In this document: positions 26,556 through 52,473 of the stretch, in pieces | Layout of the letters: each line of letters begins with the position of its first letter | How positions within the stretch are numbered: the stretch's first letter is position 1 | Translations under genes and position numbers: made by a program | Source of the DNA: Candidatus Omnitrophota bacterium | GTDB taxonomy: Bacteria > Omnitrophota > Gorgyraeia > Gorgyraeales > Gorgyraeaceae | DNA length: 64,000 nt | NCBI GenBank assembly: GCA_041648935.1 | Contig: JBAZOA010000001.1 | Span: 2,433 to 66,432, forward strand | Direction of reading: 5' to 3' | The notes under the pieces: model-generated | Database searches by the model: none | What the model was told of the DNA's origin: nothing | What the model saw: only the letters and a program-made list of their open reading frames with translations

Positions 26556-26570
26556 GCGAGGCCGCCTCGC
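26556..26570 (-). terminator. Candidate terminator hairpin (GCGAGGC-C-GCCTCGC) for the metE-like gene
   Basis: GC hairpin followed on the minus strand by UCAGUGUUUCUUCUC, about 57 nt after the metE-like stop. Confidence 0.3.
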
Positions 26571-26626
26571 TGGGGCGGCCGAGCGTCTTTTCGAAGGCCT
26601 GCCGGCCGGAGACATAAATTATCTTA

Positions 26627-27658: not shown

Positions 27659-28653
27659 CGCGGCGCCCGGCAGGAATTACGCTCTATCAATTCTGTGTCC
27701 AATATTATCTTCTTGTTGGCCTTTATCTTCTTGAATATTACCTGATTCAGGGTCTCCACGCTGATAACCGCCATCTCGTGCAAAGGCTGCCTTATGGTGG
27801 TAAGAGGCACGGGAGAATAACTCAGGGCAAACTGGTTATCGTCAAAACCTATCACGGAAATGTCCCTGGGGACGCTTACGCCGTTTTCAAGACAGGTCTC
27901 TATCGCGCCGACCGCCATCTCGTCGCTGGCCGCGAATATGGCCGTGGGCGGGTTTTTTAACCTCAGGAGTTCCTTCACCGCCTTCTTGGCGGACCCCCTG
28001 CCGAAATCGCCGTATTTTATGTAGTCATCCCTCTTTGTCACGTTGCGTTTCTCAAGGGTCTTCAGATAACCGTTTAAACGGTCTATCGCCACCTGGGATT
28101 TCAGCTCTCCCGTGACAGTGGCTATCCTGGAATGGCCGAGTTTTATCAGATACTCTGTCGCCTTCACCGCCGCCTTGAAATTATCTATGGATACGCAGGA
28201 CACGGGCAGGTCTCTCGTAAAATAATTCATGATAACGCACGGGAGCCCGGCCTCCAGGACATTGTCTACCTGGTCCTCATTGCCTATGATATCGGAAAAG
28301 ATGACGCCTTCCACGGAAGACATGTTTAAAAAACTTTCGCCGTTACTGATGTGCACCAGGAGGTCCATCTTAAGGCGCTCCACGGCCAGGCCGACGCCCT
28401 GGATTATCTGAAGCGCGTAAAACGAGTGGAATATATCCTCGTACCGGGGAATGACCAGTCCTATGGTATTATTGTGTTTTGTCGCCAGCCGCTGCGCGCT
28501 TATGTTAGGCCTGAATTTAAGCTCTCCTATGGCCTTCTCTACCTTCTCCTTATTATATCTTTTCACGGAACCCTGCTTATTTACCACCCTGGAAACCGTG
28601 GCTATTGACACGCCGGCCAATCTCGCCACGTCTTTTATGTTGACCTTGCTCAT
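27655..28653 (-). CDS. LacI-family transcriptional regulator
   Basis: N-terminal HTH IKDVARLAGVSIATVSRVVN plus a periplasmic-binding-protein-like sugar-binding domain. Confidence 0.8.
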   Translation of the reverse strand: MSKVNIKDVARLAGVSIATVSRVVNKQGSVKRYNKEKVEKAIGELKFRPNISAQRLATKHNNTIGLVIPRYEDIFHSFYALQIIQGVGLAVERLKMDLLVHISNGESFLNMSSVEGVIFSDIIGNEDQVDNVLEAGLPCVIMNYFTRDLPVSCVSIDNFKAAVKATEYLIKLGHSRIATVTGELKSQVAIDRLNGYLKTLEKRNVTKRDDYIKYGDFGRGSAKKAVKELLRLKNPPTAIFAASDEMAVGAIETCLENGVSVPRDISVIGFDDNQFALSYSPVPLTTIRQPLHEMAVISVETLNQVIFKKIKANKKIILDTELIERNSCRAPR

Positions 28654-30161
28654 TTTAACGTCTCCCCGGCCTTGCCCAGTATGCTCGCCGTTACGAATAT
28701 CAATAGGTTTTTTCTTTCCACGCTGTCTGAATTCTTCCTGAAAAGCCCTCCCAAAAGCGGCATGTCCCCCAGCACGGGGACCTTTGTCTTCGTATTAGTC
28801 CTTGATTCTTTTATTAGCCCCCCCAGCACCACGGTGTCTCCGTTGCGCACCGCCACGTTCGTGGCGAGGTCCCTTGTCGTGAATTTCGGCAGTTTGACCT
28901 CCCCGCTGTACTCAAAAGCGTTTTCCTCGTATTCGCTCACTTCGGGATTCAGGGTCAGGGCTATGATCTCCTTGTCTTTGCCCACGCTCGGCGTCACGTT
29001 CAGGAGTATCCCTACGTCCCTCGTCTCAAAACCCTGGGGGACATTGACAAACCTGGTCTCTTTTATGCTGACCCCGCTGACTACCACCGTATCCAGGAAG
29101 TCGCCGTCGTTATTCAAGTCCTCTTTTGTGAGGGTCGGTTCATACCTCGTGGGATACACGTATTCGTCCGCTATCTTTATGGTCGCTGTCTGGTTATTCA
29201 GGGTAGTTACCCGCGGCGCGGAAAGGGTCTTCGACTTTGTCTTTTTCTCAAGGGCATGCAAGACCGCTGAAAACTGCGGCCTCGTAAGCAGTCCCTGATA
29301 ACTCAGATTAAGGCCTTCCGTGGGCGCGCCCGTAAACGCTGAAAACATGGAACCGCTGTTCGCGCCTACCTGATTCACGGCCGAACCGGAATCTTTATAT
29401 ATCACCCATGGGGTATCAAGGGACAGGTTAACGCCCAGCTCGCTTAAATCCGTCACGTTTATCTCGACGAATTTCGCCTCGATCAGGATCTGCACCGCGT
29501 CTATGTCCAGATTATAAAGGATATCCTCGACTACCTTTAAATTCGACGGGGTATTCGTGACTATCAAGGCGCCCGTGCGCTCGTCCAGATTTATCTTTGA
29601 ATCGCTCGGCCATGCCACCGCGTTTTCGAGCACGTCTTTTATGGTGCTTGTCTTCGATATCCCGGCCGCGCCCCCGAATCCGCCTTTTATGCCGCTGGTA
29701 TTGCCGCTGAATTCGGTATACATGGCAAGCCCCTGATCAAGAAAATACATCCTTGTCTCAGGCGTTTCCTTGTCCATGTTGTCAAAACTATCCACCCATA
29801 TCGCGTTCTTGTCCACCCTGTAGGCGAGCCCCTGGTTCCTGAAGATATACTTCAACAGGCTTTCCAGCGGCATGTCCTTCACCTTTATGCTGACTTTTTT
29901 CTCCGACAGCTTAATCCCGTTCCCGGGTATTATGTTCACGCCCGTGGCGTCTGATAAAAAATCTATCACGTAATCGAGGCCCACGTCCCTGAAATCAACC
30001 GTGACAGGCATGCGGATCTTATTCCTGATCTCCGGGACCGACACTATGGCGTGCCCTTCGCCGCCGTCGCGGCCTTTATCCATCGGCCTGGATTCATAGG
30101 CATAAAGCCCCTCGCAGGATATTAAAAATAAACACAGGTATATGACCAGATTTTTCTTCAT
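28650..30161 (-). CDS. pilQ: Secretin (PilQ/GspD family), lipoprotein-type signal
   Basis: Lipobox FLISC; secretin N-domains; C-terminal secretin domain TKVPVLGDMPLLGGLFRKNSDSVERKNLLIFVTASIL. Confidence 0.8.
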   Translation of the reverse strand: MKKNLVIYLCLFLISCEGLYAYESRPMDKGRDGGEGHAIVSVPEIRNKIRMPVTVDFRDVGLDYVIDFLSDATGVNIIPGNGIKLSEKKVSIKVKDMPLESLLKYIFRNQGLAYRVDKNAIWVDSFDNMDKETPETRMYFLDQGLAMYTEFSGNTSGIKGGFGGAAGISKTSTIKDVLENAVAWPSDSKINLDERTGALIVTNTPSNLKVVEDILYNLDIDAVQILIEAKFVEINVTDLSELGVNLSLDTPWVIYKDSGSAVNQVGANSGSMFSAFTGAPTEGLNLSYQGLLTRPQFSAVLHALEKKTKSKTLSAPRVTTLNNQTATIKIADEYVYPTRYEPTLTKEDLNNDGDFLDTVVVSGVSIKETRFVNVPQGFETRDVGILLNVTPSVGKDKEIIALTLNPEVSEYEENAFEYSGEVKLPKFTTRDLATNVAVRNGDTVVLGGLIKESRTNTKTKVPVLGDMPLLGGLFRKNSDSVERKNLLIFVTASILGKAGETLK

Positions 30162-30175
30162 GTTGCGCGCCCGCC

Positions 30176-32662
30176 TTACTGTTCGATGGCCGCCGGCCTG
30201 CCGCCCAAGACGCTCGCCATCCTGTCTTCGTCTCTATTCATGACGCTGGCCGTGACAAATATCAAGAGATTCCTGCGTTCCGTGGAATCCGTGCTCTTCC
30301 TGAATAATCCCCCGACAAAAGGCATGTCCCCCAACAAAGGCACCTTTGTCTTCACTGTCGTGTTCGTCTCTTTTATGAGGCCGCCCATCACCACTGTCTC
30401 GCCGTCCTTTATTATCACGCTGGTGCTGAGATTGCGCGTGGTGAACTGCGGTATGGTCACGCTCCCCGAGTACGACTGCGTGCCTGAGGCCTCGCTTACC
30501 TCCGGCGTCAGCGCGAGCGTTATGTTCTTGCCGTCCACCCCGACGCTGGGCTTCACGTGCAGCATTATGCCGACGTTACGTGTGACAAAGTCCTGGGGTA
30601 TGTTCGCCCACTCTGTCTCGCCGGCGTCGTCAAAGTCACCGTCGCCGTTTATGTCATACTGCACCAGGCTGACCTCATACCTGGTCGGATATATATATTC
30701 GTCTATCACCTCTATCGTGGCCGCCTGGTTATTCATGGTGGTGACGCTCGGGGCGGACAACGTCTTCACGTTCTGCCGTTCCTGCAGTGCGTGGAGCGCG
30801 GCCTGGAACTGCGGATGGCTGAGTATGCCCTGGTACGTCAGGTTAAATCCCTCGTCCGACCGGCTGAAATCCGAAAAACCAACACCGCTGCCTGACGCGA
30901 CGCCATGCAGGGCCTGCCTGGAATTGCTCACCTTCGCGCCCCAGTCGCTGTTCAATATCCATTCAAAACCTAATTCATCCGTGTCAGTGACCTTTACCTC
31001 CAAAAACTTCGCCTCTATGAGCACCTGCACCGGCGTGATGTCCAGGTTATAAAGCAGATTTTCCACTATCTCCAGATTTGATGGGATATTGCTGACTATC
31101 AGGGCGCCTGTCCTGTCGTCAAGCGTCAATTTGGATTCCTTCGGCCATTCCACCGCGTTCTGAAGCACGTCTTTCACCGTCTTGACCTCGGCGGAAATCG
31201 ATGAGGACGAGGAGGAACCTTCCAGATCCCCGCCCTTCGCCTGTGTGATGAATTCCGCGAACCTGCCCACGCCCTCGTTCAAAAAATACACCCTTGTCTC
31301 GACCTTTTCGTTGTCAAGCTCCTCTTTTGTCGCTATCCAGACAGCGTCCTCCTCTATCCTGTAGACAAGGTCCAGCGATTTCAATATATACATCAACGCC
31401 TCTTCCAGGGGCATGTTCTTTATCTTCATGGTCACCTTGCTCTCCGATATGTCTATCTGGGTCGAAGGCACTATGTTCACGCCCGTGGCGTCCGAAAGAA
31501 AGGCCAGGACATAATCAAGCCCCACGTCCTTGAAATCCACGCTGATCGGTATCTTGAGCCGCTTGCGTATCTCAGGCACCTTCACGAGCGGCGTTATCTT
31601 CTTCTTTCTCTCAAGGGCCCCTGTTTTTTCCTCGGGCAGGATGTGTTCCCTGGCCACGTCCAGGAGCATCCTCTCCTCTGTCAGCTCTCTCGCCTTTTTC
31701 AGGGCGTCCTCTTCCGTCTTTATCCGCTGCGTCTCAATATAATGCAGGGTCTCCTTGAATTTTTCGTTCTCCGGCAATTCCGATATGGCCCTGTTCGCGG
31801 TCTCTATCGCCTGGTCAAAATCCTTGCCCTTGATGTCCTTTATTATGGAGTCCATGTAATCGGTGACCTTGGCTATCTTTTCATGCGCTTCCCGCGCCTT
31901 TAACCTCTGTTCAAAGACCCTTTTAAGGGCGATCTTTTCCACCTCTTTTCTCTGGCGCTCCGCCTCCCGTATCCTCTTTTGCCTCTCCATCTCCAGCTTC
32001 GCGAGCCTCGCGCCTTCCATCCTCGCCAAGAGCAGTCTTTCCTCGTCTTTCTTTATCCGCTTCCGCATGTCGTTTATGAGAGATTCCGCCTGAGGGACCA
32101 ACTCGTTCACCGGATCTATCTCTTTGATCTTTTTCAATACCACTATGGCCAGGGGATAATTCCTCTGCTTGTAATATTCCATGCCCTGTTTATATGCCAG
32201 TTGTATCTTCTGCTGCTGGAATAACCTCTGTTTCCTCCTGGCCTCTTCCCAGGCGATCCTCCTCATCTCTTCCAGATTCACTATCCTTTCCTCTTCCTGC
32301 CTGGCCATCTTCTCCGCCTCCGAGACAACATCCTGCTTCATCTTTTCCAGTTTTTTGTACTGCAGTACCAGCATCTCCGACATCCTGGCCTTGGATTTAT
32401 CGATGTAGATCTCGGCGAAAGGCGTGAAATACGGCTCGCCCTGCTTTTCCTCCACCTCTATGAGCCTTTCGAACAGCGCGATCGCCTCCTTGTATTTCCC
32501 ATTCTCGAATAAGGACATCGCCTCCTCAAAATATTTCCGCAGATCGACCTTTGAAAGCACGGCGGTCCTGACATAAGAGGGATCCAGGGACGCGGCGCCG
32601 GGGCCGCACCACAGGCCGATACTGAACAATACTATTAAAATGCCGCTCAAGATCTTTCTCAT
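30176..32662 (-). CDS. Secretin paralogue with ~330-aa N-terminal TPR/coiled-coil extension
   Basis: C-terminal half parallels the adjacent secretin (TKVPLLGDMPFVGGLFRKSTDSTERRNLLIFVTASVM). The N-terminus has a signal peptide, TPR-like repeats and a long K/E/R-rich coiled coil. Confidence 0.8.
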   Translation of the reverse strand: MRKILSGILIVLFSIGLWCGPGAASLDPSYVRTAVLSKVDLRKYFEEAMSLFENGKYKEAIALFERLIEVEEKQGEPYFTPFAEIYIDKSKARMSEMLVLQYKKLEKMKQDVVSEAEKMARQEEERIVNLEEMRRIAWEEARRKQRLFQQQKIQLAYKQGMEYYKQRNYPLAIVVLKKIKEIDPVNELVPQAESLINDMRKRIKKDEERLLLARMEGARLAKLEMERQKRIREAERQRKEVEKIALKRVFEQRLKAREAHEKIAKVTDYMDSIIKDIKGKDFDQAIETANRAISELPENEKFKETLHYIETQRIKTEEDALKKARELTEERMLLDVAREHILPEEKTGALERKKKITPLVKVPEIRKRLKIPISVDFKDVGLDYVLAFLSDATGVNIVPSTQIDISESKVTMKIKNMPLEEALMYILKSLDLVYRIEEDAVWIATKEELDNEKVETRVYFLNEGVGRFAEFITQAKGGDLEGSSSSSSISAEVKTVKDVLQNAVEWPKESKLTLDDRTGALIVSNIPSNLEIVENLLYNLDITPVQVLIEAKFLEVKVTDTDELGFEWILNSDWGAKVSNSRQALHGVASGSGVGFSDFSRSDEGFNLTYQGILSHPQFQAALHALQERQNVKTLSAPSVTTMNNQAATIEVIDEYIYPTRYEVSLVQYDINGDGDFDDAGETEWANIPQDFVTRNVGIMLHVKPSVGVDGKNITLALTPEVSEASGTQSYSGSVTIPQFTTRNLSTSVIIKDGETVVMGGLIKETNTTVKTKVPLLGDMPFVGGLFRKSTDSTERRNLLIFVTASVMNRDEDRMASVLGGRPAAIEQ

Positions 32663-33216
32663 TCAGGGCCTTTCTCCGAAAGCTCTTCCTCTTTTTCCTT
32701 CCTGACCGTACCCAGCACGAGCTCTTCCCCGTCATCTTTCTTCAGGCGCACCTCTCTATCCCCCACGCTCGACACTATGTAATCGGCCACCTTGTCGCCC
32801 TCCTGGACCGAATAACTCTTCCCCGTACCCTCGTCTTCTATGATGACCATGACCTTGGAGCCGAGGGTGATCCTGCCCTTGTAAACCAGCACGGGTTTCC
32901 TGGGCGCCTCTTCCTCAAGAGGTATTATCTCCGGTTTTTTCGCGGCGGTATCTTCTGTCACCAATTTTCCGAAAATATTTCTCCTCAAAAGCGGCTCGCC
33001 GCCGTCAAGGGAATCCTCCGACTTCAGTACGGCCGTATCCCAGATATCCTTAAAGGCCTTCTTCCTGGCCTTGGCCTTTTCAGTGGCGCTCTGCATGTCC
33101 TTCATAAACTCATCCGCCTCTGTCTTTTTCTTCTCCTGGGAATTAAGGCCCACCGCCAGGCTGATCGCCAGACCTATCACCAGTAACCAGAATATGACCT
33201 TCTCTTTTGTGATCAT
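32659..33216 (-). CDS. PilP-like pilus assembly protein (tentative)
   Basis: N-terminal TM/lipoprotein-like segment, then a charged linker and a C-terminal beta-domain (VLVYKGRITLGSKVMVIIEDEGTGKSYSVQEGD). Position between pilO-like and the secretin. Confidence 0.4.
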   Translation of the reverse strand: MITKEKVIFWLLVIGLAISLAVGLNSQEKKKTEADEFMKDMQSATEKAKARKKAFKDIWDTAVLKSEDSLDGGEPLLRRNIFGKLVTEDTAAKKPEIIPLEEEAPRKPVLVYKGRITLGSKVMVIIEDEGTGKSYSVQEGDKVADYIVSSVGDREVRLKKDDGEELVLGTVRKEKEEELSEKGPE

Positions 33217-33971
33217 TTTTTTGGCCTCGCCACCATGAACGTGCTCGCCACGAAACTCACTTCCAGGTCTTCGGATTCTTTGCTGTTTTTCACGTGCAGT
33301 TCCTTCACCGAGACAACGGGGCTCCCGTTCCTCAATATCGTCAAAAGGCCTGCCAGGGTTTCGTGATCTGTCTTGATCGAAACCTGAACAGGCAATTCAG
33401 TATAAAATAACCCCTTGCCCGAGGGCACGGCGTAATCGATGGACTTGAGCGGTTTCAGGGCGTATATCTCTATATTTCCGCTTTTCAAGAGCGTGCCCAG
33501 GATCAGCTCTATTGTCTCCAGCTGTCTAAGAAGCGCCTCTACCATGCTGTCTTTGGGGAGCCCATCCCCGAAGCCCAGGTTCTCCGGGACCTTCACGCCT
33601 TTTTCGGCCGCGGACGGCTCAAACTCCTTCATCGTGCCGTGCAGCCTCTCTATGAAATACAGGCCCGCCTCCGCGCCGGATTCCAAGATCCTTGTTTTTT
33701 TCGGGTCCACGAAATCCATAAGCTCTGAAAACTTATTCTCGAGCGCCGAGTTTTCCTTCTCCATCCTGTCAAAACTCTCCTTGGACGGCAGGGATCCCGT
33801 GCGTGTCACGTACCTCTTTATCTCCAGGGTCTTGCGGTCCAGCTCCTCATCCATCATGCTCTTCCCTTCCTTCAGAAACGGATTTATTAAAAATACGTAC
33901 AGGCCCAGCATCGCGCCAAGCGCTATCAGACCCTGCTTCAAGAAAGTTTTTTCCCTGCCTGCCTTCAACAT
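33213..33971 (-). CDS. PilO-like pilus assembly protein (tentative)
   Basis: Single N-terminal TM, coiled coil and C-terminal alpha/beta domain; located after the pilM-N fusion. Confidence 0.45.
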   Translation of the reverse strand: MLKAGREKTFLKQGLIALGAMLGLYVFLINPFLKEGKSMMDEELDRKTLEIKRYVTRTGSLPSKESFDRMEKENSALENKFSELMDFVDPKKTRILESGAEAGLYFIERLHGTMKEFEPSAAEKGVKVPENLGFGDGLPKDSMVEALLRQLETIELILGTLLKSGNIEIYALKPLKSIDYAVPSGKGLFYTELPVQVSIKTDHETLAGLLTILRNGSPVVSVKELHVKNSKESEDLEVSFVASTFMVARPKK

Positions 33972-33972: not shown

Positions 33973-35496
33973 TTACTCCCCGCTGGCGTTGATGTCCATG
34001 GTTATGCTGAACTTCACGACCTCCTCGGCCGTATCCTTGTCTTTTTCCACGGAAGACGATATGGGCTTCACGTCCCTGAAAGTGGGGGACGCCTTGAGCG
34101 CCGTGACAAAATTATTGACCGCCTGGTACGAAAACGCCTTGCCGTTCAGGTCCAGACGCCCCAACCCGCTTTTTTCCATGGAGACCACGCCTGAAAAATC
34201 AGTGAGCCAGACATCATCCGGGATTATGCCTGAAATGATGCCGAAGACGTCCAGCCACATGGCCCGGGAAAAAGCCACCTGGTAAATCGCGCCGATCTTC
34301 TCCTTCAGCGCCTCTTCGCTTTCCTGTATTTCTTTTATCTTCGGCTCATAGGTCCTGTAGACCTCCATCATCTCGTCTATCTTTTCCAGCTTGGCCTTCT
34401 TCAGAAAATAATCCTGCCTCATGAAAATAGATACGCTGGCCAATAAAAGCGCCAGGGCGGCGGCGGAAAGACCCGTGTAAACGCGTTTCTGCGCGGCCCT
34501 GGACCTTTCGCTGATCGTCTCTTTCAAAAAATTAACCTCTATCTTTAAAGGCTCCATGTCTCTCAGCGCGAGGCCCACCGCCACGCCGAACTGATTCTTG
34601 ATACCCTTTGCCTGCGCGGCCTGGAACATCTCCTTGGCTATGCGTAATTTTCTAAAGGGGTCCAGGAGACGCGGTTTTACCCCGAGCCGCTCCGCGAACA
34701 CGGCCTCCATGTCCTCAAACAAACTCCCCCCGCCGGTTATTATCAGGTCGTCTAATTTCTTCTTGCCGGACGGGTCCTCGCCCTGCTGCATGAAATAATA
34801 TTCCAACGAGCGCTCTATCTCGGAAATAATCTCCTCCGCGCCCTGGCCGCGCGATTCCCGCATCCTGTCAGCCGCTATGGGAAAACTCCGTATCCACACA
34901 TTTCCCTTGTTATATACTATAAAGTTCGTTGACTTTGAGCCCATGTCGACTATGGCCCCCAGCTTGGAATCATCGTAATCCTCATTAAAGGCCATGCAAT
35001 TATACACGCTCAGGGTGGAGACATCTATTAAAGAAGTCGATAATTTCGCTGACTTCAACGCGGATATCGTATCCTCGATGATATTCTTTTTTATGGCGAT
35101 AATCACCGCCTTCTGTGCCGCGCCCTTGTCCTTATCCAGCACGGCCCAATCCCAATTTACCTCGTTCAGGGGGAAAGGTATCTGGTTCTGGGCCTCGAAC
35201 TTCATTGTCTGCCTCAGCTTATCTTCCTTTACGCTTAACAGCTTGACAAACCTTATGAATACGGATTGGCCGCTCGCGCAGACGTTGACGCTGGACGGTT
35301 TTATCTTGTTTTCGGAAAACAACTGGGATATAAGCTGGGATATGGCCTTGTTCCTGTCCAAGCCGGGGTCATCAGGGATCTCTTTTATGCCGAATTTGGT
35401 CAGCATGACGCCCTTGCCCGCCCTTTTCAATTCCACGAGCTTTATGTACCGGCTGCCTATGTCCAACCCTATTGAACTCGACTTGTGTTTAGCCAT
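33973..35496 (-). CDS. pilMN: PilM-PilN fusion protein
   Basis: N-terminal actin-like PilM (SSIGLDIGSRYIKLVELKR). An internal TM (VYTGLSAAALALLLASVSIFM) is followed by PilN-like coiled-coil and periplasmic regions. 507 aa. Confidence 0.7.
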   Translation of the reverse strand: MAKHKSSSIGLDIGSRYIKLVELKRAGKGVMLTKFGIKEIPDDPGLDRNKAISQLISQLFSENKIKPSSVNVCASGQSVFIRFVKLLSVKEDKLRQTMKFEAQNQIPFPLNEVNWDWAVLDKDKGAAQKAVIIAIKKNIIEDTISALKSAKLSTSLIDVSTLSVYNCMAFNEDYDDSKLGAIVDMGSKSTNFIVYNKGNVWIRSFPIAADRMRESRGQGAEEIISEIERSLEYYFMQQGEDPSGKKKLDDLIITGGGSLFEDMEAVFAERLGVKPRLLDPFRKLRIAKEMFQAAQAKGIKNQFGVAVGLALRDMEPLKIEVNFLKETISERSRAAQKRVYTGLSAAALALLLASVSIFMRQDYFLKKAKLEKIDEMMEVYRTYEPKIKEIQESEEALKEKIGAIYQVAFSRAMWLDVFGIISGIIPDDVWLTDFSGVVSMEKSGLGRLDLNGKAFSYQAVNNFVTALKASPTFRDVKPISSSVEKDKDTAEEVVKFSITMDINASGE

Positions 35497-35685
35497 CTAC
35501 CTTGCCCTTCCCATTATGGCCCTTAGTTTTCTGACGTCGTCCTCCGTGTACTCCCTCCAGCCGTTCAGGGCATTTCTCCCCGGCTCCGGAAACAATTTTT
35601 TATTCTCATAACGAACAAGGGTCTGTTTTGATATACCCAGAAGCCTGGCTGTTTCCGTGACAGAATAGTATTTTTTCTCTTTCAT
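35497..35685 (-). CDS. Small MerR/excisionase-type HTH DNA-binding protein
   Basis: YSVTETARLLGISKQTLVRYE HTH. Start set at MKEKKYY, which has a GAGG SD 9 nt upstream; the longer ORF extension is rejected. Confidence 0.5.
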   Translation of the reverse strand: MKEKKYYSVTETARLLGISKQTLVRYENKKLFPEPGRNALNGWREYTEDDVRKLRAIMGRAR

Positions 35686-35861
35686 ATATAAAACCTCGCT
35701 TTTTAACATCACGCCTATCCGCCCCCCCAGACAAATTAGGCCGAATCTCTTCGGCCTTACCTTGAATGCGCCCCATCTTATGACCCTGATACGGGTTGAT
35801 ATGGAGTGATACAACTATATACTATCAAATAGTGTTTGTCAAGGGCAGGGGGTAAAAATAC

Positions 35862-37664
35862 TTATTCTTCTTTCCAGAACTTGAAGGGCTTTTTGGCGGG
35901 CGCTTCCGGCTTCGGTACGCCTTTTTCGTTTATAGTCCATGCCCTTTCCGCGGGCACGGGATCCATCTCGTCCAGATCGATGACGCCGTTATTGTTCACG
36001 TCTTTCGCGGCCTGAACCTTAAAATAATGGTTGCCATCGGCTAAATCCTTCCTGCCCGCGGACGAATCGCGGGACGACCACTCAGACCATTCCTCATTAT
36101 CAAATTGCCATCTGAACAAACATCCGTCCACGGTGCCCTTAAAGGTAAACAAGGCGTCCCTGGATCTGGTCAGCAGGCTTGGCCCGCTTGTTATCAGGGT
36201 GTCAGGCGCTATTATTATGAGCTCTATGGTATCGCTTACTATCTCTGACTCGTTCCCGGCCGAATCCCTGAATTTCGCGTATACCTTGCGCGTGCCGGTT
36301 ATAGGGGTAAGCACCCAGTTCTCTTTCTTTGTCTGATAAGGCTCCCATGCCTCGGTGTCGAAAACGCCGTCATTTGAAATGGCCATGTACTCCACGTTCG
36401 AGGTGGAGTCGGAGGCGGAGATCGCCAGGTTCACGTAAACCGAATTAGTGGTCGCGTCCTGATTATTTATAATAAGATATCCTGAAGGACCCTTCGTGTC
36501 TACAACGAAACTCCACACCACCGGAGAGGTCTCGTTGCCAACGACATCGCTCACCTGTATGGATACCACGTTATCCCCTTCGCTCAGGGGGGTGGAAGGT
36601 ATGTATATCACGCTCTTCGAGTTTTCGTCATAAGTGGCGTTTACGCTTCCTTTATTTATGGTCATGTTTATGGACTCCGGATCCACGCCGCTGTGATCAT
36701 CCGTAACGCTTATGGAAATAGTCGACCTGTCATTGGATATCATGGCGCTGTTGGTCGGAGAATAACCGCCTATGACAGGACTTGCCCTGTCTATCCATAT
36801 CTCAAAAGAGGCGGTATCGCCCCAATTCCCGGCTGAATTCTGCGCCTTGAGATTAAACACCCTGACTCCGTCGGAAAGCAGGCTCGAGGGCGTCTGATAA
36901 GACACGGATTGCGTGTCCGCCTCATCGTCAGGCACGTCGCCCCAGGCATAGCTGTATCCGATAATCCTGACCCCGGTGACGGGATATTCCCAATACATGT
37001 AAGGGTCGGCGCAGCCCTGCCATAATTTCGCGGGTATGTCCTGGCCCGCGGGGGCTGTCTTGGCCCAGATTATGGGCACGTCCGCCGCTCCTGTAGAAAG
37101 CCTGAATCCGCTCGTGGCCGTCTTCCACCCGGAATAATCATAACCGTCGCTTACCCTCACGCGCCACCTGTAATCCACGCTTTGCTCTGTGGTGGAAAGC
37201 ACGGGGGTAGTGTAGTCATTGCCGCCGGACGCCACGAGGCCTGAATCCACGCTGAGCGTGACAAAATTATCCTTTGATACCTGGACCTGGTAATAACGCT
37301 GTCTGTGGCCGTCTTTATCCGAATAGGCCCAGCTCAAGGTAGGCGTGCTGTCAACGGTTATGAGGCCGTCGTTGAAACTCGTTACGCTGACATCCGGGAT
37401 CATGTTGCTTGAAGCCAGCATGCCTCCGTATATCTTATAGGCCTTTCCTATGGCGACGCTGGTCCCCAAAGGACTGCCGACGCTATTCTGGCTGTTATAA
37501 CTGCTGGAGGCCCCTGCCGCGCCGCCGTTGTCCGCGACCGCGGAGTGAAGCTTATAGCTCTTGCTGGAAGATATGGCCGCGCGCGCGGCGCCCGTGAAAA
37601 TAAAAAAGGCCGCCATCAAAATAATAGCGACCCTTATAATAAATCTATGACATATGTTATTCAT
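35862..37664 (-). CDS. Secreted protein with multiple beta-sandwich (Ig/FN3-like) domains
   Basis: Signal peptide, Ser/Thr/Gly-rich composition, and repeated ~90-aa segments rich in beta-strand motifs. Confidence 0.4.
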   Translation of the reverse strand: MNNICHRFIIRVAIILMAAFFIFTGAARAAISSSKSYKLHSAVADNGGAAGASSSYNSQNSVGSPLGTSVAIGKAYKIYGGMLASSNMIPDVSVTSFNDGLITVDSTPTLSWAYSDKDGHRQRYYQVQVSKDNFVTLSVDSGLVASGGNDYTTPVLSTTEQSVDYRWRVRVSDGYDYSGWKTATSGFRLSTGAADVPIIWAKTAPAGQDIPAKLWQGCADPYMYWEYPVTGVRIIGYSYAWGDVPDDEADTQSVSYQTPSSLLSDGVRVFNLKAQNSAGNWGDTASFEIWIDRASPVIGGYSPTNSAMISNDRSTISISVTDDHSGVDPESINMTINKGSVNATYDENSKSVIYIPSTPLSEGDNVVSIQVSDVVGNETSPVVWSFVVDTKGPSGYLIINNQDATTNSVYVNLAISASDSTSNVEYMAISNDGVFDTEAWEPYQTKKENWVLTPITGTRKVYAKFRDSAGNESEIVSDTIELIIIAPDTLITSGPSLLTRSRDALFTFKGTVDGCLFRWQFDNEEWSEWSSRDSSAGRKDLADGNHYFKVQAAKDVNNNGVIDLDEMDPVPAERAWTINEKGVPKPEAPAKKPFKFWKEE

Positions 37665-37761: not shown

Positions 37762-40700
37762 TTATCTCTCGAAGACCGCCCAGATCTTCTTCTCTGCCAG
37801 GACCTTTCCGTTTTCCAGCACCTGCGCGGTGACAATAATCCTGTAAAGATTGGAATGCACCGTGACAAGATTCGATATCCGCTTGAATCTGTTCTTTTTA
37901 TCCGCGTCGCTTGAGCCGAGCGTGTCCGCGTAAAGCAGGTCTCCTATGCCCAGCTTCAATCCGCCCTTATTACCGAATACCCTGTTATTTACAATGCTAT
38001 TCGCCGTGGCGTCGTCTATGCCGGGCAGGACAGCCAGGATACGGTTGGACGCGGTGTTGACATTCACCCTCCCGTCAAAGGTATTTACGGGATCCAGCCT
38101 TATGAAATCAAAATGCGCGGCGCCTGTCTTTGAGCGATTTTTTATCTTTAACTCCAAGATGCCCGTCCCTATCTCTACGTCCCCGAAAACTATCCCATTA
38201 TCCGGGCCCGGGCTTAACGCCGGGGTCCATTGACTCCAGGTCCCGTCAGCCAGGCGCGCTGAAACGCTGATCTCTTCCTCTTCCTGGCCGAATATCCTCA
38301 GTTTATAATAACCGTCTTCCGCCTCCCATTTCCAGGTTCCTATGGAATCCGGCGAACCGCTTTCGAAATGGTCTGTCAGGGGCGCGGCCCTCTGCACGAT
38401 CTTCCATCCGCTTTCAGATTCAGGGACCATATGTCCTTCCGCCTCAAGCCGTATCCCGAATACCGTCAGCCTGTCCGCTATCTTCGCCACGTCTTCCGTC
38501 GTAATGGTTGACCAGTCATCCAGGCCTATCGGCACGAACCCGGCCTCTCCCACTGAGGAAAAATTCCTGTTCTTCACGTTCACTTCCGTGTCGTAATGCT
38601 CTATTATCTCCTCTCCTATCCTCTCTTTCATGCCCTCGTTATTGTTCGGCAGGCCGGGCGTCCCGCCTTTATCCGCTGCCGAGACATGCCAGTTATCAGG
38701 CGCCCCGTTATTGTTCGAATCGATCACGTGGCTCGGATCTGATTTTTCCAGGCTCTTGCTGTTCGTGACGCGGCCGGAAAAATATTCCTCCTTGTCAACA
38801 ACGTGGCCCATCGGGTCTTTTAAAATAATTATATTCCCGCCCACGGCGTCGGTGTTTGATAATAGGTCCGACTGCGGCGTTATGGTCCTTAAAAAATGCA
38901 GGGCCGCTGACCTCTGCCTGCCCCAGATGGAAACAAAAGATAATCCGTTGCCGCTTATCCCGGACTGAGAATCGTCTTTATCCACGGCGAGCGCCAGGTG
39001 TTCGTGCGGCCCTATGGTTGTCCCCAAAGGGATGGTGGCCGGCCATCCTTCCTTGCCGGGACCCTCCAGACTCCAGCCGCTCAGGTTTACCTCGCGCGGC
39101 GTCAGATTTATAAGCTCCACGTATTCCCCGTCCGGCTCCTGGCTCAATTCCACTGATTTAAAATAAGTCTCCCCGGCCGGGAGATTATTCTGCACGCTGA
39201 CCGTGAGTTTTCCGCCCGAGACGGTCAAGACCTTGCCTCCGCCGAACAAATCCCCGTCCTTCAGATTCTTAGAGTAAGATCCGTTGATCTCGGCGTCTCC
39301 TATGTCGCGTCCGGACGCGCCGCCAAAAAACCTGACATAATATTTCCCGGCGGGTATGTCTTTCCATGTCCACGTCCCTTCGCCCTGTTTTCCGCCGTTC
39401 GGCTTATCATTCCGATAAAAACCATTCTGCCATGCCCAATCACCTCCCGGCTCCTGTCCGCTGAAGGCCTCCCTGGCGATGACCGGTTTTACCATTATCT
39501 CGTTTATCCTTATGCCTTCACAGCCGCGTATCTCGACTGAGCTAAAACCCTGCTGGCCTAAGCGCGGATACAGTTCCAGGTAAGAAAAATAACACGTCTT
39601 ATCCGAATTATTCGTGATCATGAGGTTAAGGATCCTGTCCGCGAAAGACACTGCCCCCATCCTCAATATCTCCCCGTGCGCGACCGAACCCTGAGTCATG
39701 TTGTTTATCGTAATGTCCCCGACCAATTCGTCTTTCACGCCGAATACGCCCACGTAATATTCGCCTTCCGGCACATTCAGCCAGGTCAGTATGAGGTCCT
39801 GGCCTTCCCTGATATCGCTCTCGTAACGCCCGCCGCGCCATATCCAATCCCCGATGGGCCCTTTATTTATCGCGGAAAGCCTGTTATACAGCTTTGTCAC
39901 GACGCTCTGGCTGAAATCTTCGTCACAGGCGTCTATCATGTTCACCGCCTTCTGAAAAGGATCCCTGACGCCGGCATCCTCCAGCGATACCAGCAGAGAA
40001 TTCGCGTCCATGAAATTTATATTATTCCTAAGGCGGCCTTCGACATCCACGTTCCTGTCGGTCGAATAAGTTGTCAGATAAGCGCACAAATCCCTGACCG
40101 TCTCCCTGGGGATAGACCTGATCTTGCTTATCTCGAAAGGGGTCTCGAACGCCCTGTCGTCCCCGGCCGGGGATTTAGGGGAAAATTCGAGCGGCTCGTC
40201 GACGCCTTCGCCGGATTCGTCTATGACCCCGTCCGCGTTATTGTCTATGCCGTCGTAATCCAATATCCTCTGGTTCTGGTTATCATCAACGCCCGCGGCG
40301 CCGGGCTGGCCGTCCGGACCGTATCTGAAATCGGCCACGTCCTCATATATGTCTTCTGAATTGTCCAGCTTGAATGAATCGAAAAATTTCTTGAGGTCCA
40401 GCTCGAAAGGCGCCCAGCCCTCCGTGACCTTTAAAGGCGAGAGATTCTGCTTGTCCGCGATATTGATGTTCAGCAGGCCGGCTTCGTCCTTTACCAGCAC
40501 GGCGTAGCGGCCTATCGTGTCCCCGCCGTCGTCCCGGACGTTTATCCATTTTGAATCAGCCTCGCCGTCGGAATCATTGTCTACCTCATCTCCGACGAAG
40601 ACAGCGCGCCAATTATCCTCAAAACTATCTATGTCCCGCTCATCTTCCTCCAGGATGACCTGGGCGTGAGTGATGCCCGTCTCCGCCAGCTGAGACGCCC

Positions 40701-40845
40701 TGACCGCCTCCAAATAATTAACGGCCGCTTTCAGCTCCAGCCGCATGGTAAACGCGAACGCCACCGCCATTATGCCCGCGACCGCCAACACGCTTATTAC
40801 CAGTATTAAAGCAACTCCTCTATCCTCTTTTATCATTCTCATCAT
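37762..40845 (-). CDS. GspK/PilX-like minor pseudopilin, giant variant with lamin-tail domain and C-terminal ComEA-like helix-hairpin-helix
   Basis: N-terminus RGVALILVISVLAVAGIMAVAFAF...LEAVRASQLAETG matches GspK. LTD motif EYVELINLTPREVNLSGWSL. C-terminal HhH VNVNTASNRILAVLPGIDDATANSIVNNR. The track start is TTG; an ATG about 9 codons in, preceded by GGGTGG, is preferred. Confidence 0.55.
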   Translation of the reverse strand: MMRMIKEDRGVALILVISVLAVAGIMAVAFAFTMRLELKAAVNYLEAVRASQLAETGITHAQVILEEDERDIDSFEDNWRAVFVGDEVDNDSDGEADSKWINVRDDGGDTIGRYAVLVKDEAGLLNINIADKQNLSPLKVTEGWAPFELDLKKFFDSFKLDNSEDIYEDVADFRYGPDGQPGAAGVDDNQNQRILDYDGIDNNADGVIDESGEGVDEPLEFSPKSPAGDDRAFETPFEISKIRSIPRETVRDLCAYLTTYSTDRNVDVEGRLRNNINFMDANSLLVSLEDAGVRDPFQKAVNMIDACDEDFSQSVVTKLYNRLSAINKGPIGDWIWRGGRYESDIREGQDLILTWLNVPEGEYYVGVFGVKDELVGDITINNMTQGSVAHGEILRMGAVSFADRILNLMITNNSDKTCYFSYLELYPRLGQQGFSSVEIRGCEGIRINEIMVKPVIAREAFSGQEPGGDWAWQNGFYRNDKPNGGKQGEGTWTWKDIPAGKYYVRFFGGASGRDIGDAEINGSYSKNLKDGDLFGGGKVLTVSGGKLTVSVQNNLPAGETYFKSVELSQEPDGEYVELINLTPREVNLSGWSLEGPGKEGWPATIPLGTTIGPHEHLALAVDKDDSQSGISGNGLSFVSIWGRQRSAALHFLRTITPQSDLLSNTDAVGGNIIILKDPMGHVVDKEEYFSGRVTNSKSLEKSDPSHVIDSNNNGAPDNWHVSAADKGGTPGLPNNNEGMKERIGEEIIEHYDTEVNVKNRNFSSVGEAGFVPIGLDDWSTITTEDVAKIADRLTVFGIRLEAEGHMVPESESGWKIVQRAAPLTDHFESGSPDSIGTWKWEAEDGYYKLRIFGQEEEEISVSARLADGTWSQWTPALSPGPDNGIVFGDVEIGTGILELKIKNRSKTGAAHFDFIRLDPVNTFDGRVNVNTASNRILAVLPGIDDATANSIVNNRVFGNKGGLKLGIGDLLYADTLGSSDADKKNRFKRISNLVTVHSNLYRIIVTAQVLENGKVLAEKKIWAVFER

Positions 40846-40870
40846 TATACAAACCACCCGTTGAATTTGC

Positions 40871-40911
40871 AAATAAAAACCCCGTCCACCAAAAAACTTC
40901 GGTGGACGGGG
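40871..40911 (-). terminator. Rho-independent terminator (bidirectional-type hairpin)
   Basis: CCCCGTCCACC-aaaaaacttc-GGTGGACGGGG is a perfect 11-bp GC-rich stem followed by UUUUUAUUU on the minus strand, 30 nt downstream of the stop of the 40941..41615 gene. Confidence 0.75.
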
Positions 40912-40940
40912 TCATGTCACGAACCAACAAATCTAAATAA

Positions 40941-51717: not shown

Positions 51718-52473
51718 TTAAATTATTTCCACGCCGGCCTTGGGAAGCCAGCCCCTCAGGTCTTTTGAAAGATCTATCTCATACCAGCCCTGGCTTTCTT
51801 TTACCACGCGGACCTCGGTGCCTTCGTGCAGCGTAAACTGTAAAAGATAATCGTCTTTTGGGCCGCTTCTGACGTCTATTTTTTCGGATACGATGACCGC
51901 CTTCATGGCGGCATTCTCTCCCTGTATCTTCGCGGCCAGAAAAACTAAAAAGACAAGTGACATGAAACCGGTTACCCAAACATTATAAAAAATTATCCGC
52001 CTTTTGGAAACAAAAAAGATAAAAAATATTAAAAGCAGCGCCGTGGCCAGATAAAAAACAAAACATGCCGCGGTCAGTTCTTCTATGCTCATCCTGTCGT
52101 ACAAAAAAAACGCGGCGTTTAAAATAAAGCCCCTGTCCGAGATGTTTATCTTGTCTACGGCCATCTCCCGCGCGAGTTTCAGATTCAGGCGCGCGTCCCT
52201 GTCTCTGGGCGCCAGGCGAAGCGCCCTTTCGTAATTCGCGATTGCCATGCCGATCTTTTTTGATTTAAAGAAACTGTTGCCGAGATTGTAAAATACCTCG
52301 GGTGAGACCCTGTCCATCCTGACAAGCGTCTCGTAAAGCGATATCGCCTTGGCGTAATCGCCATTCTCGTAACTAAGATTCGCCTCGGCGTAAATCTCTT
52401 CCGGCGCCTGGGCGGAAGACGCGCCGGCCAAACCAAAAAACATGACGATTAGAAATAACAGCGCCTTTCTCAT
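51718..52473 (-). CDS. batE: BatE-like TPR plus SH3b membrane protein
   Basis: Signal peptide, TPR repeats, TM segments and a C-terminal SH3b motif (VRSGPKDDYLLQFTLHEGTEVRVVKESQGWYEI...GWLP). Confidence 0.65.
   Translation of the reverse strand: MRKALLFLIVMFFGLAGASSAQAPEEIYAEANLSYENGDYAKAISLYETLVRMDRVSPEVFYNLGNSFFKSKKIGMAIANYERALRLAPRDRDARLNLKLAREMAVDKINISDRGFILNAAFFLYDRMSIEELTAACFVFYLATALLLIFFIFFVSKRRIIFYNVWVTGFMSLVFLVFLAAKIQGENAAMKAVIVSEKIDVRSGPKDDYLLQFTLHEGTEVRVVKESQGWYEIDLSKDLRGWLPKAGVEII

What the first reader, a model, noticed from the sequence alone, without database searches (positions are those of the whole stretch)
37762..40845. 1036-aa GspK-like minor pseudopilin with an inserted lamin-tail domain and other large insertions
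GspK/PilX-type pseudopilins are normally about 330 aa. This one keeps the GspK N-terminal helix and the C-terminal HhH (VNVNTASNRILAVLPGIDDATANSIVNNR) but contains about 700 aa of insertions. These include an LTD motif (EYVELINLTPREVNLSGWSL) and several Gly/Asp/Trp-rich beta modules. It may be a pilus-tip adhesin or DNA receptor. A strong terminator hairpin sits immediately upstream of its start.
Basis: partly seen in the sequence, partly recalled or inferred. Interest (0 to 1): 0.65.

Follow-up and report, generated by a model that had tools for sequence, protein, structure and literature searches.

The report
Giant pilus-tip pilin with adhesin inserts
This gene from an uncultured Omnitrophota bacterium encodes the cap subunit of a pilus-like filament that has been enlarged threefold by binding-type domains inserted at its exposed tip, so it is probably what these tiny, host-dependent cells use to grab a target. 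It is a real but uncharacterised variant of a known design.

Summary
A 1027-aa ORF on the minus strand (37762-40845; 1036 aa from an unlikely TTG) has a GspK-type prepilin N-terminus without Glu5, a GspK-like core, a lamin-tail domain (LTD) and three beta modules. A strong terminator lies just upstream. It is not a fusion artefact: about 75 full-length Omnitrophota homologs exist, and the AF2 model is confident (pLDDT 89). The three beta modules are paralogous CBM6-like sandwiches, and one is nested inside the LTD. Shorter relatives in other candidate phyla have only the LTD, placed between the two halves of the GspK alpha-domain. The wider family has about 300 clusters. Relatives show GspI-GspJ-K gene order. 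In the window the gene is followed by PilMN, PilO, GspC-like and two secretin genes. It is most likely the apical minor pilin displaying a built-in adhesin. The DNA-receptor idea is weak: the protein is very acidic, the HhH belongs to the GspK fold, and bacterial LTDs are dispensable for DNA degradation. One new lead emerged. This K-pilin ends flush, and the conserved downstream secreted Ig-rod protein ends in a motif that partner-less relatives carry in cis on the K-pilin. That suggests a PilY1-like "plug". It is a new variant of a known kind, of moderate interest.

The parts
37762..40845 (-). CDS of the enlarged GspK/PilK-family apical minor pilin (1027 aa plus stop). It is identical to NCBI 'hypothetical protein WC569_00230', Candidatus Omnitrophota MAG.
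40636..40845 (-). aa 1-70: prepilin leader (MMRMIKEDRG|), a hydrophobic N-terminal helix with Leu rather than Glu at +5, and the long alpha-1 helix.
   Evidence: helix 5-67
40471..40635 (-). aa 71-125: first beta-strands of the pilin fold.
   Evidence: part of the NCBIfam GspK match
39913..40470 (-). aa 126-311: first half of the GspK alpha-domain. It is very acidic (net -23), carries an invariant DxDxDG-like loop (D187...E220), and has an HhH-like segment at aa 230-258.
39520..39912 (-). aa 312-442: beta-module B1, a CBM6-like jelly roll and the most variable domain in the family.
39487..39519 (-). aa 443-453: first strand of the LTD (GIRINEIMV), separated from the rest of the LTD by B2.
   Evidence: LTD profile coverage extends from 21-107 to 7-107 when B2 is removed
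39142..39486 (-). aa 454-568: beta-module B2, a paralog of B1 nested inside the LTD.
   Evidence: (B1~B2 E=2.6e-39)
38746..39141 (-). aa 569-700: remainder of the lamin-tail domain (EYVELINLTPREVNLSGWSL...).
38578..38745 (-). aa 701-756: linker or extension after the LTD. Its fold is unassigned.
38356..38577 (-). aa 757-830: segment X2 with the motif VKNRxFxSVGE. It is conserved in all relatives, including those without B modules, and is probably a return to GspK alpha-domain sequence.
38083..38355 (-). aa 831-921: beta-module B3, the third paralog of B1 and B2.
37861..38082 (-). aa 922-995: GspK HhH sub-domain (GRVNVNTAS...), matching PF03934 and PF12836.
37765..37860 (-). aa 996-1027: C-terminal beta-hairpin that closes the pilin sheet. 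The protein ends flush at ...AVFER with no extra tail.
40878..40913 (-). Intrinsic terminator of the upstream msc-like gene. A promoter-like TTGCAA-17-TATAAT follows at 40872..40844.
35862..37664 (-). Conserved downstream partner: a 600-aa Sec-secreted rod of about 5 Ig/FN3-like domains. It is a candidate PilY1/MshQ-like tip partner.
35865..35891 (-). The partner's extreme C-terminal motif KPFKFWKEE-COOH. It is conserved across orthologs and has low confidence when modelled alone. It is a candidate 'plug' strand.
35497..35814 (-). Small MerR-type HTH gene (probably about 70 aa from an internal ATG), conserved between the partner gene and PilMN.
33973..35496 (-). PilM-PilN fusion (GspL-like, Amuc_1101-like) assembly protein.
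33213..33971 (-). PilO/GspM-like protein (Amuc_1100-like).
32659..33216 (-). GspC/PilP-like protein (weak match).
30176..32662 (-). Secretin with an N-terminal TPR (Amuc_1098-like).
28650..30161 (-). Second secretin, in tandem with the first.

Best explanation
The gene encodes the apical (GspK/PilK-family) minor pilin of a type IV filament machine in a Candidatus Omnitrophota bacterium. The machine is a T2SS/T4aP hybrid of the PVC 'Amuc_1098-1101' kind.

Shown:
- The protein has a prepilin-type N-terminus lacking Glu5 and a GspK-like pilin core.
- About 600 aa are inserted into the tip-facing alpha-domain. The insert holds one lamin-tail (Ig-like) domain and three paralogous CBM6-like beta-sandwiches. 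One sandwich is nested inside the LTD, and one is a separate insertion further downstream.
- The LTD insertion is ancient and defines a broad family in several candidate phyla. The three sandwiches are an Omnitrophota addition.

Inferred:
- After cleavage by prepilin peptidase at G|VALILV, the protein caps the filament together with GspI/J-like pilins.
- The filament passes through the secretin(s).
- The displayed module array binds an external ligand, most likely a glycan or envelope component of a surface or of a host/prey cell. This would give these ultra-small, host-dependent bacteria a built-in tip adhesin, as in CpaL, ComZ and the S. sanguinis modular pilins.

Further inferred: this K-pilin ends flush after its last strand, so the extra C-terminal beta-strand that K-family pilins need may be supplied in trans. 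The candidate donor is the conserved C-terminal motif (KPFKFWKEE-COOH) of the secreted Ig-rod protein encoded immediately downstream, as PilC/PilY1/MshQ do. The tip would then carry two large binding proteins.
For: GspK identity:
- N-terminus and absence of Glu5.
- NCBIfam GspK E=6.7e-15, rising to 58 bits when the inserts are removed.
- Foldseek match to XcpK 9a1f_T, probability 1.0 over 309 columns.
- PF21687 and PF03934 pass their cutoffs in relatives and flank the LTD.
- GspI-like and GspJ-like genes lie directly upstream in relatives.
- GspF/PilC and GspE/PilB lie upstream in distant relatives.
- PilMN, PilO, GspC-like and two secretin genes lie downstream in the window.

One folded protein: AF2 pLDDT 88.9, pTM 0.85, and about 75 homologs of the same length.

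Inserts:
- LTD scores 34.8 bits, rising to 47.9 bits with profile coverage 7-107 when B2 is removed.
- B1, B2 and B3 are paralogs.
- The modules match the CBM6/CBM36 fold with probability 1.0 and TMt about 0.6.

Family breadth:
- 300 clusters at E<=1e-30.
- LTD motifs are invariant in 47 divergent representatives.
- Short relatives carry only the LTD.

Framework from the literature:
- K-family pilins lack Glu5 and are apical, and large inserts in K homologs act as built-in adhesins (CpaL, ComZ).
- The modular-pilin concept, with a pilin+LTD architecture listed in a census.
- Omnitrophota T4aP are proposed to mediate host attachment.

Plug idea:
- The partner gene is always directly downstream in Omnitrophota.
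- Its C-terminal motif is conserved in 38 orthologs at 33-68% identity.
- The tail has low confidence and no secondary structure in the monomer model.
- K-pilin tail length is bimodal: 141 with 0-4 aa, 65 with 11-27 aa.
- A matrix trained only on partner tails scores the cis tails far above background (p~1e-10).
- A tail-less K co-occurs with a partner in 9 loci, and a cis-tailed K with no partner in 9 loci. No locus has both. Fisher p = 3e-4 to 2.6e-3.
Against: - There is no experimental evidence of any kind. All sequences come from MAGs.
- Curated HMM cutoffs for GspK are not reached by this protein (55 vs 130 bits; PF03934 18.4 vs 24.2).
- A core-only profile recovers solved GspK only through its HhH (E=0.048).
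- In this window no GspI/J-like genes, major pilin, ATPase or platform are adjacent. The nearest candidates are about 28 kb away and already have their own K-like (PilX_N) pilin.
- The ligand is unknown. LTD function in bacteria is unresolved. The CBM6 resemblance is fold-level only, with no Pfam hit.
- For the plug idea: the K-pilin has a long C-terminal hairpin of its own. Half of the cis tails do not score above background. L007 and L010 are tail-less with no visible partner. The loci are phylogenetically non-independent. No complex could be modelled here.
Confidence: 0.62

Rival explanations
1. DNA receptor: the tip pilin captures extracellular DNA through its LTD and HhH motifs, for natural transformation or for DNA scavenging as a nutrient, as ComZ does in Thermus.
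For: - The HhH segments align to ComEA and EEPD1 HhH motifs.
- LTDs occur in the extracellular nucleases ExeM and Xds.
- The window's other pilus cluster contains an SNase-family nuclease and a bifunctional-nuclease-domain gene.
- ComZ sets a precedent for a DNA-binding insert in a tip pilin.
Against: - The HhH is the intrinsic GspK alpha-domain element (PF03934 overlaps it) and is present in non-competence T2SS GspK.
- The protein is strongly acidic: net -60, pI 4.6. The LTD has a family mean net charge of -14 and pI 4.26, with a maximum of 4.86.
- In both ExeM and Xds the LTD is dispensable for DNA degradation.
- The nucleases are 28 kb away, in a different pilus gene set.
- The added modules look like carbohydrate-binding folds.
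Confidence: 0.12
2. Periplasmic T2SS pseudopilus tip: the filament never leaves the cell. The enlarged GspK recognises or pushes secreted substrates, or gates the secretin. The downstream Ig-rod protein would then be a secreted substrate rather than a tip partner.
For: - The gene order in relatives is T2SS-like (F-G-I-J-K-L/M-C-D).
- The PilM-PilN fusion is GspL-like, and the GspM and GspC-like hits fit a T2SS.
- GspK-type minor pseudopilins are implicated in substrate binding.
- The partner has a Sec signal, as T2SS substrates do.
Against: - A ~110-kDa cap carrying four extra beta-sandwich domains is hard to reconcile with a short periplasmic piston.
- Adhesin-like folds (CBM6-like, Ig rods resembling SiiE and GhpA) suggest external ligands.
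- The apparatus also matches the Amuc_1098-1101 'type IV pilus' families.
- The cis/trans distribution of the C-terminal motif fits stable tip anchoring better than a released substrate.
Confidence: 0.18
3. Assembly or annotation artefact: several adjacent genes (a pilin, an LTD protein, an HhH protein) fused by a mis-assembly or frameshift.
For: The unusual length, and weak scores for the individual domains.
Against: - The exact protein and about 75 full-length homologs come from independent assemblies and sources.
- It is a single uninterrupted frame.
- The AF2 model is confident, with the two ends forming one pilin fold.
- The domains are nested rather than arranged head-to-tail.
Confidence: 0.01

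Closest known systems
T2SS GspK / XcpX (ETEC 3CI0; P. aeruginosa 5VTM, 9A1F)
   Same: It shares the prepilin N-terminus without Glu5, the pilin fold interrupted by an alpha-domain containing HhH elements (INVNTA motif), gene order after GspI and GspJ in relatives, and a proposed apical position.
   Different: It is three times larger. About 600 aa of beta-sandwich domains are inserted within the alpha-domain, and there is an extra acidic DxDxDG-like loop. It scores well below the curated GspK cutoffs. It ends without the additional C-terminal strand or tail that many relatives carry.
K-family pilins with built-in adhesin or receptor inserts: CpaL (Caulobacter Tad), ComZ (Thermus), V. cholerae competence PilX (PMC13533445; PMC7248040)
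   Same: These are apical minor pilin-like proteins in which several hundred residues are inserted into the pilin module, so that the tip subunit itself is the binding device.
   Different: Here the insert sits inside the GspK-type alpha-domain, not between the last strand and its acceptor sheet. The domain types differ (LTD plus CBM6-like, against a beta-solenoid and others). A separate partner protein is also present.
Modular pilins of Streptococcus sanguinis (PilB-vWA, PilC-lectin) and the InterPro census of Raynaud et al. 2021 (PMC8179133)
   Same: A functional module from a family not specific to pili is carried by a pilin for display. The census already lists 'pilin + LTD (IPR001322)' in 6 proteins.
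   Different: Those modules are grafted C-terminally through a linker. Here they are inserted and nested within a K-family pilin, which the IPR012902-based census would mostly miss. None has been studied.
PilX/PilK + PilY1/PilC and MshP + MshQ tip complexes
   Same: A large Sec-secreted non-pilin protein is encoded directly after the K-family pilin gene, with a short conserved extreme C-terminus that is disordered when modelled alone. In L037 the partner is a Laminin_G_3 protein, like MshQ.
   Different: The Omnitrophota partner is an Ig/FN3 rod with no PilY1 beta-propeller. The K-pilin also carries its own large binding modules. The interaction is inferred only from the cis/trans motif distribution.
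Verru_Chthon cassette protein A (TIGR02600) and the Akkermansia Amuc_1098-1102 pilus-like cluster
   Same: These are PVC-group systems with a very large GspK-like first protein followed by prepilin-type proteins. The window's secretin, PilM-like and PilO-like proteins hit the Amuc_1098, Amuc_1101 and Amuc_1100 families.
   Different: Only the N-terminal 54 residues match TIGR02600 (21.7 bits against a 332-bit cutoff). The scores to the Amuc families are far below their cutoffs. No LTD or CBM architecture has been reported for those systems, to my knowledge.

Membership tests
GspK/PilK-family apical minor pilin | Class III (prepilin) signal: a short charged leader ending in Gly, followed by about 20 hydrophobic residues. 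| tested here: met
   The sequence is MMRMIKEDRG|VALILVISVLAVAGIMAVAFAF. It is conserved in 41 aligned homologs.
GspK/PilK-family apical minor pilin | No Glu at position +5 of the mature protein. | tested here: met
   Position +5 is Leu, and the family consensus is G-[IV]-A-L-I-L. The criterion is taken from PMC13533445.
GspK/PilK-family apical minor pilin | Score above the curated HMM cutoffs (NF037980, PF03934, PF21687). | tested here: not met
   NF037980 scores 55.4 bits against a cutoff of 130, and PF03934 scores 18.4 against 24.2. Relatives do pass: L014 has PF21687 at 34.6 and PF03934 at 27.6, and many homologs carry precomputed PF03934. The protein is therefore a remote member by sequence.
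GspK/PilK-family apical minor pilin | Pilin fold with an alpha-domain inserted in the beta-sheet, superposable on solved GspK. | tested here: inconclusive
GspK/PilK-family apical minor pilin | Gene directly follows the GspI-like and GspJ-like minor pilin genes. | tested here: inconclusive
   This is met in relatives L001, L002, L033, L034 and L036. It is not met in this window, where msc and gpmA lie upstream.
GspK/PilK-family apical minor pilin | Located at the filament tip in complex with GspI and GspJ. | not testable with these tools
   This needs complex modelling or experiments.
Lamin tail domain (PF00932) | Score at or above the Pfam gathering threshold. | tested here: met
   The score is 34.8 bits against 34.3. 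It rises to 47.9 bits with profile coverage 7-107 of 109 after excising nested module B2.
Lamin tail domain (PF00932) | Ig-like beta-sandwich fold. | tested here: inconclusive
   The AF2 model shows beta-strands with pLDDT above 90 in this region. No domain-level fold comparison was possible.
CBM6/CBM35/CBM36-type carbohydrate-binding modules (for B1-B3) | Beta-jelly-roll fold similar to solved CBM6. | tested here: met
   Foldseek matches 2cdp, 2cdo, 8j3x and 7ay3 with probability 1.0, about 135 columns and TMt about 0.6.
CBM6/CBM35/CBM36-type carbohydrate-binding modules (for B1-B3) | Sequence-family membership. | tested here: not met
   The isolated modules have no Pfam family at E<=1. A profile search in the large protein database was uninformative.
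CBM6/CBM35/CBM36-type carbohydrate-binding modules (for B1-B3) | Binds carbohydrate. | not testable with these tools
   Conserved Trp and Tyr residues (W..W, G.YY) are compatible with carbohydrate binding but are not diagnostic.
PilC/PilY1/MshQ-type tip partner (for the 600-aa downstream protein) | Sec-secreted non-pilin protein encoded directly after the K-family pilin gene. | tested here: met
   A signal peptide is present (helix 3-23). The position is conserved in L001-L006, L008, L009 and L034.
PilC/PilY1/MshQ-type tip partner (for the 600-aa downstream protein) | Short conserved extreme C-terminal motif that is disordered when modelled alone. | tested here: met
   The motif P-phi-[KR]-phi-W-[KR]-x-E-COOH is present in 109 of 114 family members. 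The last 20 residues have pLDDT 50-58 and no secondary structure.
PilC/PilY1/MshQ-type tip partner (for the 600-aa downstream protein) | C-terminal PilY1 beta-propeller (IPR008707). | tested here: not met
   The protein has only Ig/FN3-like domains. It is therefore not a PilY1 homolog and is at most a functional analog.
PilC/PilY1/MshQ-type tip partner (for the 600-aa downstream protein) | C-terminal strand augments the K-pilin beta-sheet. | not testable with these tools
   The support is indirect only: the cis/trans distribution of the motif.
DNA-receptor pilins (ComZ/ComP-like) or ComEA-type HhH DNA binding | Electropositive DNA-binding surface or a dedicated DNA-binding domain. | tested here: not met
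   The protein has net charge -60, and the LTD has a family pI of 4.26. Only the HhH sub-domain is near neutral to basic, with a variable pI of 4.2-10. That HhH is the one intrinsic to GspK.

The most novel reading that the evidence does not exclude
The filament tip of Omnitrophota is a two-protein adhesin. One part is a K-family pilin whose alpha-domain displays an LTD/CBM-like array. The other is an Ig-rod protein anchored to it by a C-terminal 'plug' strand. In evolution that strand moved from the K-pilin's own tail (cis, in Ratteibacteria, TA06, Planctomycetota and other relatives) to a separate secreted partner (trans). The partner is an Ig rod in Omnitrophota and a LamG protein in another lineage. 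This would be a natural evolutionary demonstration of the beta-strand-augmentation licensing model published in 2026. It would identify the host- or surface-recognition device of a phylum of ultra-small, host-dependent bacteria. It would also mark the GspK alpha-domain as a general insertion platform across about 300 protein clusters.
Probability: 0.35. Interest if true: 0.7.

Novelty: new variant of a known kind. Interest (0 to 1): 0.5.

Why it matters
Omnitrophota are widespread, uncultured, ultra-small bacteria thought to depend on hosts, and their type IV pili have been proposed as the attachment device (PMC10066038). What the pilus actually binds with is unknown, and this protein is the most plausible candidate. 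It is the cap subunit, and it carries four binding-type domains exactly where the filament meets the outside world.

More generally, it shows that the GspK alpha-domain, whose function is still called unclear in the pilus literature, is used in many candidate phyla as a scaffold for inserted modules. The invariant first insert is an LTD.

The cis/trans distribution of the C-terminal motif gives a comparative-genomics test of the newly proposed 'plug / beta-strand addition' mechanism of tip-complex licensing. It also suggests new, non-PilY1 families of tip partners that could be found by the same logic.

Tried and rejected
- Profiles of the whole family and of the insert-deleted core were searched against PDB sequences. 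Only HhH-level hits came back (EEPD1, ComEA, PsbU; XcpK at E~0.05). This gave no independent confirmation of the GspK core by sequence.
- A profile of the B1/B2 modules searched against the 5.8-billion-protein index found one fragment. The word prefilter failed, so the search says nothing about where else the modules occur.
- My first hand-written regex for the tail motif was too narrow (3 of 44 cis tails). I discarded it in favour of a matrix trained only on partner tails.
- The partner's weak hit to the CPR pilus tip protein PamT (25.6 bits against a 240-bit cutoff) reflects generic Ig similarity only.
- The 2038-aa upstream ORF has no pilin features and no plug-like C-terminus, so I treated it as unrelated.
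- I looked for the 'symbiotic F-type ATPase next to T4aP' reported for Omnitrophota. The block next to the other pilus cluster is an Mbh-type hydrogenase/Mrp module instead.
- I searched the literature for LTD together with pseudopilin or GspK and found nothing.

Full report
**1. What is there**

The finding's coordinates enclose one long ORF on the minus strand. It runs 37762..40872 from a TTG (1036 aa) or 37762..40845 from the first ATG (1027 aa). The TTG lies in the T-tail of the upstream terminator. Homolog N-termini have only 5-9 residues before the conserved Gly. The ATG form is therefore preferred, and all residue numbers below use it.

The terminator is real: a 16-bp stem plus T-run at 40913..40878 (minus strand), dG -30.9 kcal/mol, z = -5.3. 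It ends the upstream mechanosensitive-channel-like gene. A promoter-like TTGCAA-17-TATAAT follows it.

**2. Domain evidence**

- Pfam finds an LTD (aa 572-688) at 34.8 bits, just above the 34.3 cutoff. It also finds sub-threshold HHH_3 and T2SSK hits on the same C-terminal HhH.
- NCBIfam finds GspK at E=6.7e-15 over aa 9-265, but at 55 bits against a cutoff of 130.
- The exact protein is in NCBI as a hypothetical protein of a Candidatus Omnitrophota MAG.
- About 75 full-length homologs (35-72% identity, 1003-1111 aa) exist in independent assemblies. They are variously named GspK, LTD-containing or HhH-containing.

An AF2 model built on 41 homologs is confident (pLDDT 88.9, pTM 0.85). The order of elements is:
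- a 63-residue N-terminal helix;
- pilin strands;
- a helical, very acidic region;
- a long all-beta stretch;
- HhH helices;
- a final beta-hairpin.

Foldseek against the PDB returns CBM6/CBM36 modules (probability 1.0, TMt about 0.6). It also returns the P. aeruginosa GspK homolog XcpK (9a1f_T; probability 1.0, 309 columns).

**3. Anatomy of the insertions**

The three 'Gly/Asp/Trp-rich' modules are B1 (aa 312-442), B2 (454-568) and B3 (831-921). They are paralogs: hhalign gives B1~B2 E=2.6e-39, and B1~B3 and B2~B3 probabilities of 96-97%. None is related to the LTD.

Removing B2 in silico raises the LTD score from 34.8 to 47.9 bits and extends profile coverage from 21-107 to 7-107. The strand GIRINEIMV (aa 445-453) is therefore LTD strand 1, and B2 is nested inside the LTD.

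Shorter relatives of 686-864 aa occur in Ratteibacteria, Aerophobetes, TA06 and Planctomycetota. They show the Pfam order T2SSK_1st - LTD - T2SSK/HHH_3 and have no B modules. From this:
- The LTD sits exactly between the two halves of the GspK alpha-domain. It is the ancestral insert.
- B1, B2 and B3 are later additions in Omnitrophota.
- The segment VKNRxFxSVGE (aa 757-830) is conserved in all relatives. It probably belongs to the GspK core, which makes B3 a separate insertion.

An exhaustive profile search finds 300 clusters (50% identity) at E<=1e-30. About 25 have the full architecture. Many others share only the N-terminal ~315 aa and range from 600 to 2200 aa. In 47 divergent representatives the LTD motifs YG.E...NE and IEL.N are invariant, and Pfam detects the LTD in 22 of them.

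**4. Context**

Downstream on the same strand lie:
- a 600-aa secreted Ig-domain protein;
- a small MerR-like gene;
- a PilM-PilN fusion (GspL-like);
- a PilO/GspM-like gene;
- a GspC-like gene;
- a TPR-secretin;
- a second secretin.

Several of these weakly match the Akkermansia Amuc_1098/1100/1101 families. This order is conserved in close relatives.

In more distant relatives the K gene directly follows GspF/PilC, a G-type pilin and GspI- and GspJ-like genes. In other phyla it follows PilB-PilC-pilins. In this window those components are not adjacent. A separate pilus gene set lies at 137-9578, holding PilC, PilB, an SNase, a PilZ protein, a PilX_N pilin, two small pilins and a BFN nuclease.

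**5. Function**

Published work places K-family pilins, which lack Glu5, at the apex of type IV filaments. It also shows that large inserts in K homologs (CpaL, ComZ) act as built-in adhesins or receptors. 'Modular pilins' are a recognised strategy, and a pilin+LTD architecture already appears as a row in a census table. T4aP are proposed to mediate host attachment in Omnitrophota. The best reading is therefore a tip-displayed adhesin array.

The DNA-receptor alternative is weak, for three reasons:
- The HhH is intrinsic to GspK.
- The protein is very acidic. It has net charge -60, and the LTD has a family pI of 4.26.
- LTDs are dispensable for DNA degradation in ExeM and Xds.

A purely periplasmic T2SS role cannot be excluded.

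**6. A lead beyond the original finding**

The downstream partner is always present in Omnitrophota. Its model is a rod of about five Ig/FN3 domains resembling adhesin stalks such as SiiE and GhpA. It ends in a conserved motif, P-phi-[KR]-phi-W-[KR]-x-E-COOH, that follows a variable linker. Those last 20 residues have low confidence in the monomer model.

The K-pilin C-termini fall into two classes: 141 end flush (0-4 residues after the last strand), 65 carry an 11-27-residue tail, and none are intermediate. A matrix trained only on partner tails scores the cis tails far above background ORF C-termini (median 0.7 against -7.1, p~1e-10). Tail-less K-pilins score no better than the background threshold predicts (4.5% exceed its 95th percentile).

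In loci with readable context:
- A tail-less K co-occurs with a plug-bearing partner in 9 loci. One of these is L037, where the partner is a Laminin_G_3 protein ending PPRRFWTWEEGD.
- A cis-tailed K occurs without a partner in 9 loci.
- No locus has both. Fisher p = 3e-4 to 2.6e-3.

This mirrors the published dichotomy between GspK (strand supplied in cis) and PilK plus PilY1/MshQ (strand supplied in trans).

Caveats:
- The loci are phylogenetically non-independent.
- L007 and L010 are exceptions.
- Half of the cis tails do not score above background.
- The K-pilin has its own hairpin.
- No complex could be modelled here.

**7. Verdict**

It is a remote, enlarged member of the GspK/PilK family with nested LTD and CBM-like inserts. 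It belongs to a sizeable uncharacterised family in candidate phyla. It is a new variant of a known design (the modular tip pilin) rather than a new kind of system. No experiment exists. Interest is moderate, and would be higher if the two-component tip and the cis/trans plug are confirmed.

Noticed in passing
window 28650-32662 (minus strand): Two secretin genes sit in tandem. One is 828 aa with an N-terminal TPR region (Amuc_1098-like) and the other is 503 aa. The pair is conserved in relatives L003, L004 and L006. Whether they form a hetero-oligomer or serve two filaments is unknown.
   Followed up: partly
window 137-9578 (minus strand): A second pilus gene set holds PilC, PilB (with MshEN), a staphylococcal-nuclease homolog, a 670-aa PilZ/coiled-coil protein, a 501-aa PilX_N (K-family) pilin, two small pilins (PilV/ComGE-like and Verru_Chthon-C-like) and a bifunctional-nuclease-domain gene. 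The nucleases embedded in a pilus cluster hint at DNA processing by that system.
   Followed up: partly
window 35497-35814 (minus strand): A small MerR-type HTH gene is conserved between the Ig partner gene and PilMN in the window and in L003, L004, L006 and L034. It is a possible local regulator of the assembly genes.
   Followed up: no
window 35862-37664, partner aa 25-84: The partner's N-terminal 60 residues after the signal peptide are predicted disordered (pLDDT 33-49). They nevertheless contain conserved positions (S53, G63, G81) and strand-like YKL / YKIYGG motifs. This may be a second interaction segment.
   Followed up: no
window 42533-48649 (minus strand): A 2038-aa ORF has no Pfam or NCBIfam hit and an N-terminal hydrophobic segment. 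It is one of the large orphan proteins typical of Omnitrophota. It has no pilin features and no plug-like C-terminus.
   Followed up: partly
window 9637-27658 (minus strand): This stretch holds an Mbh-type group 4 [NiFe] hydrogenase with Mrp-antiporter-like subunits, ferredoxin and oxidoreductase genes, and HypD/HypE/HypF-like maturation genes. It is not the 'symbiotic' F-type ATPase reported next to Omnitrophota T4aP loci.
   Followed up: partly
window 51718-59709 (minus strand): A BatA-BatD / MoxR-DUF58-VWA 'aerotolerance'-type operon with TPR/SH3 proteins.
   Followed up: no
L037:4639-5004 and L037:8325-8663: In one relative the K-pilin gene is flanked by two small four-helix-bundle genes of the 23S_rRNA_IVP / bAvd type. 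bAvd is the accessory protein of diversity-generating retroelements. No reverse transcriptase or repeats were looked for.
   Followed up: no
L021:4443-12535: Two giant GspK-like paralogs (1333 and 1313 aa) are encoded in tandem. L024, L025, L029 and L030 carry K-like proteins of 2100-3000 aa with many DxDxDG (thrombospondin-type-3-like) acidic repeats.
   Followed up: no
window 40836-40872 (minus strand): The -10 element of the promoter-like site overlaps the ATG cluster. A transcript starting about 7 nt downstream would begin at the third ATG (MIKEDRG...), so the mRNA may be leaderless. This is speculative.
   Followed up: no
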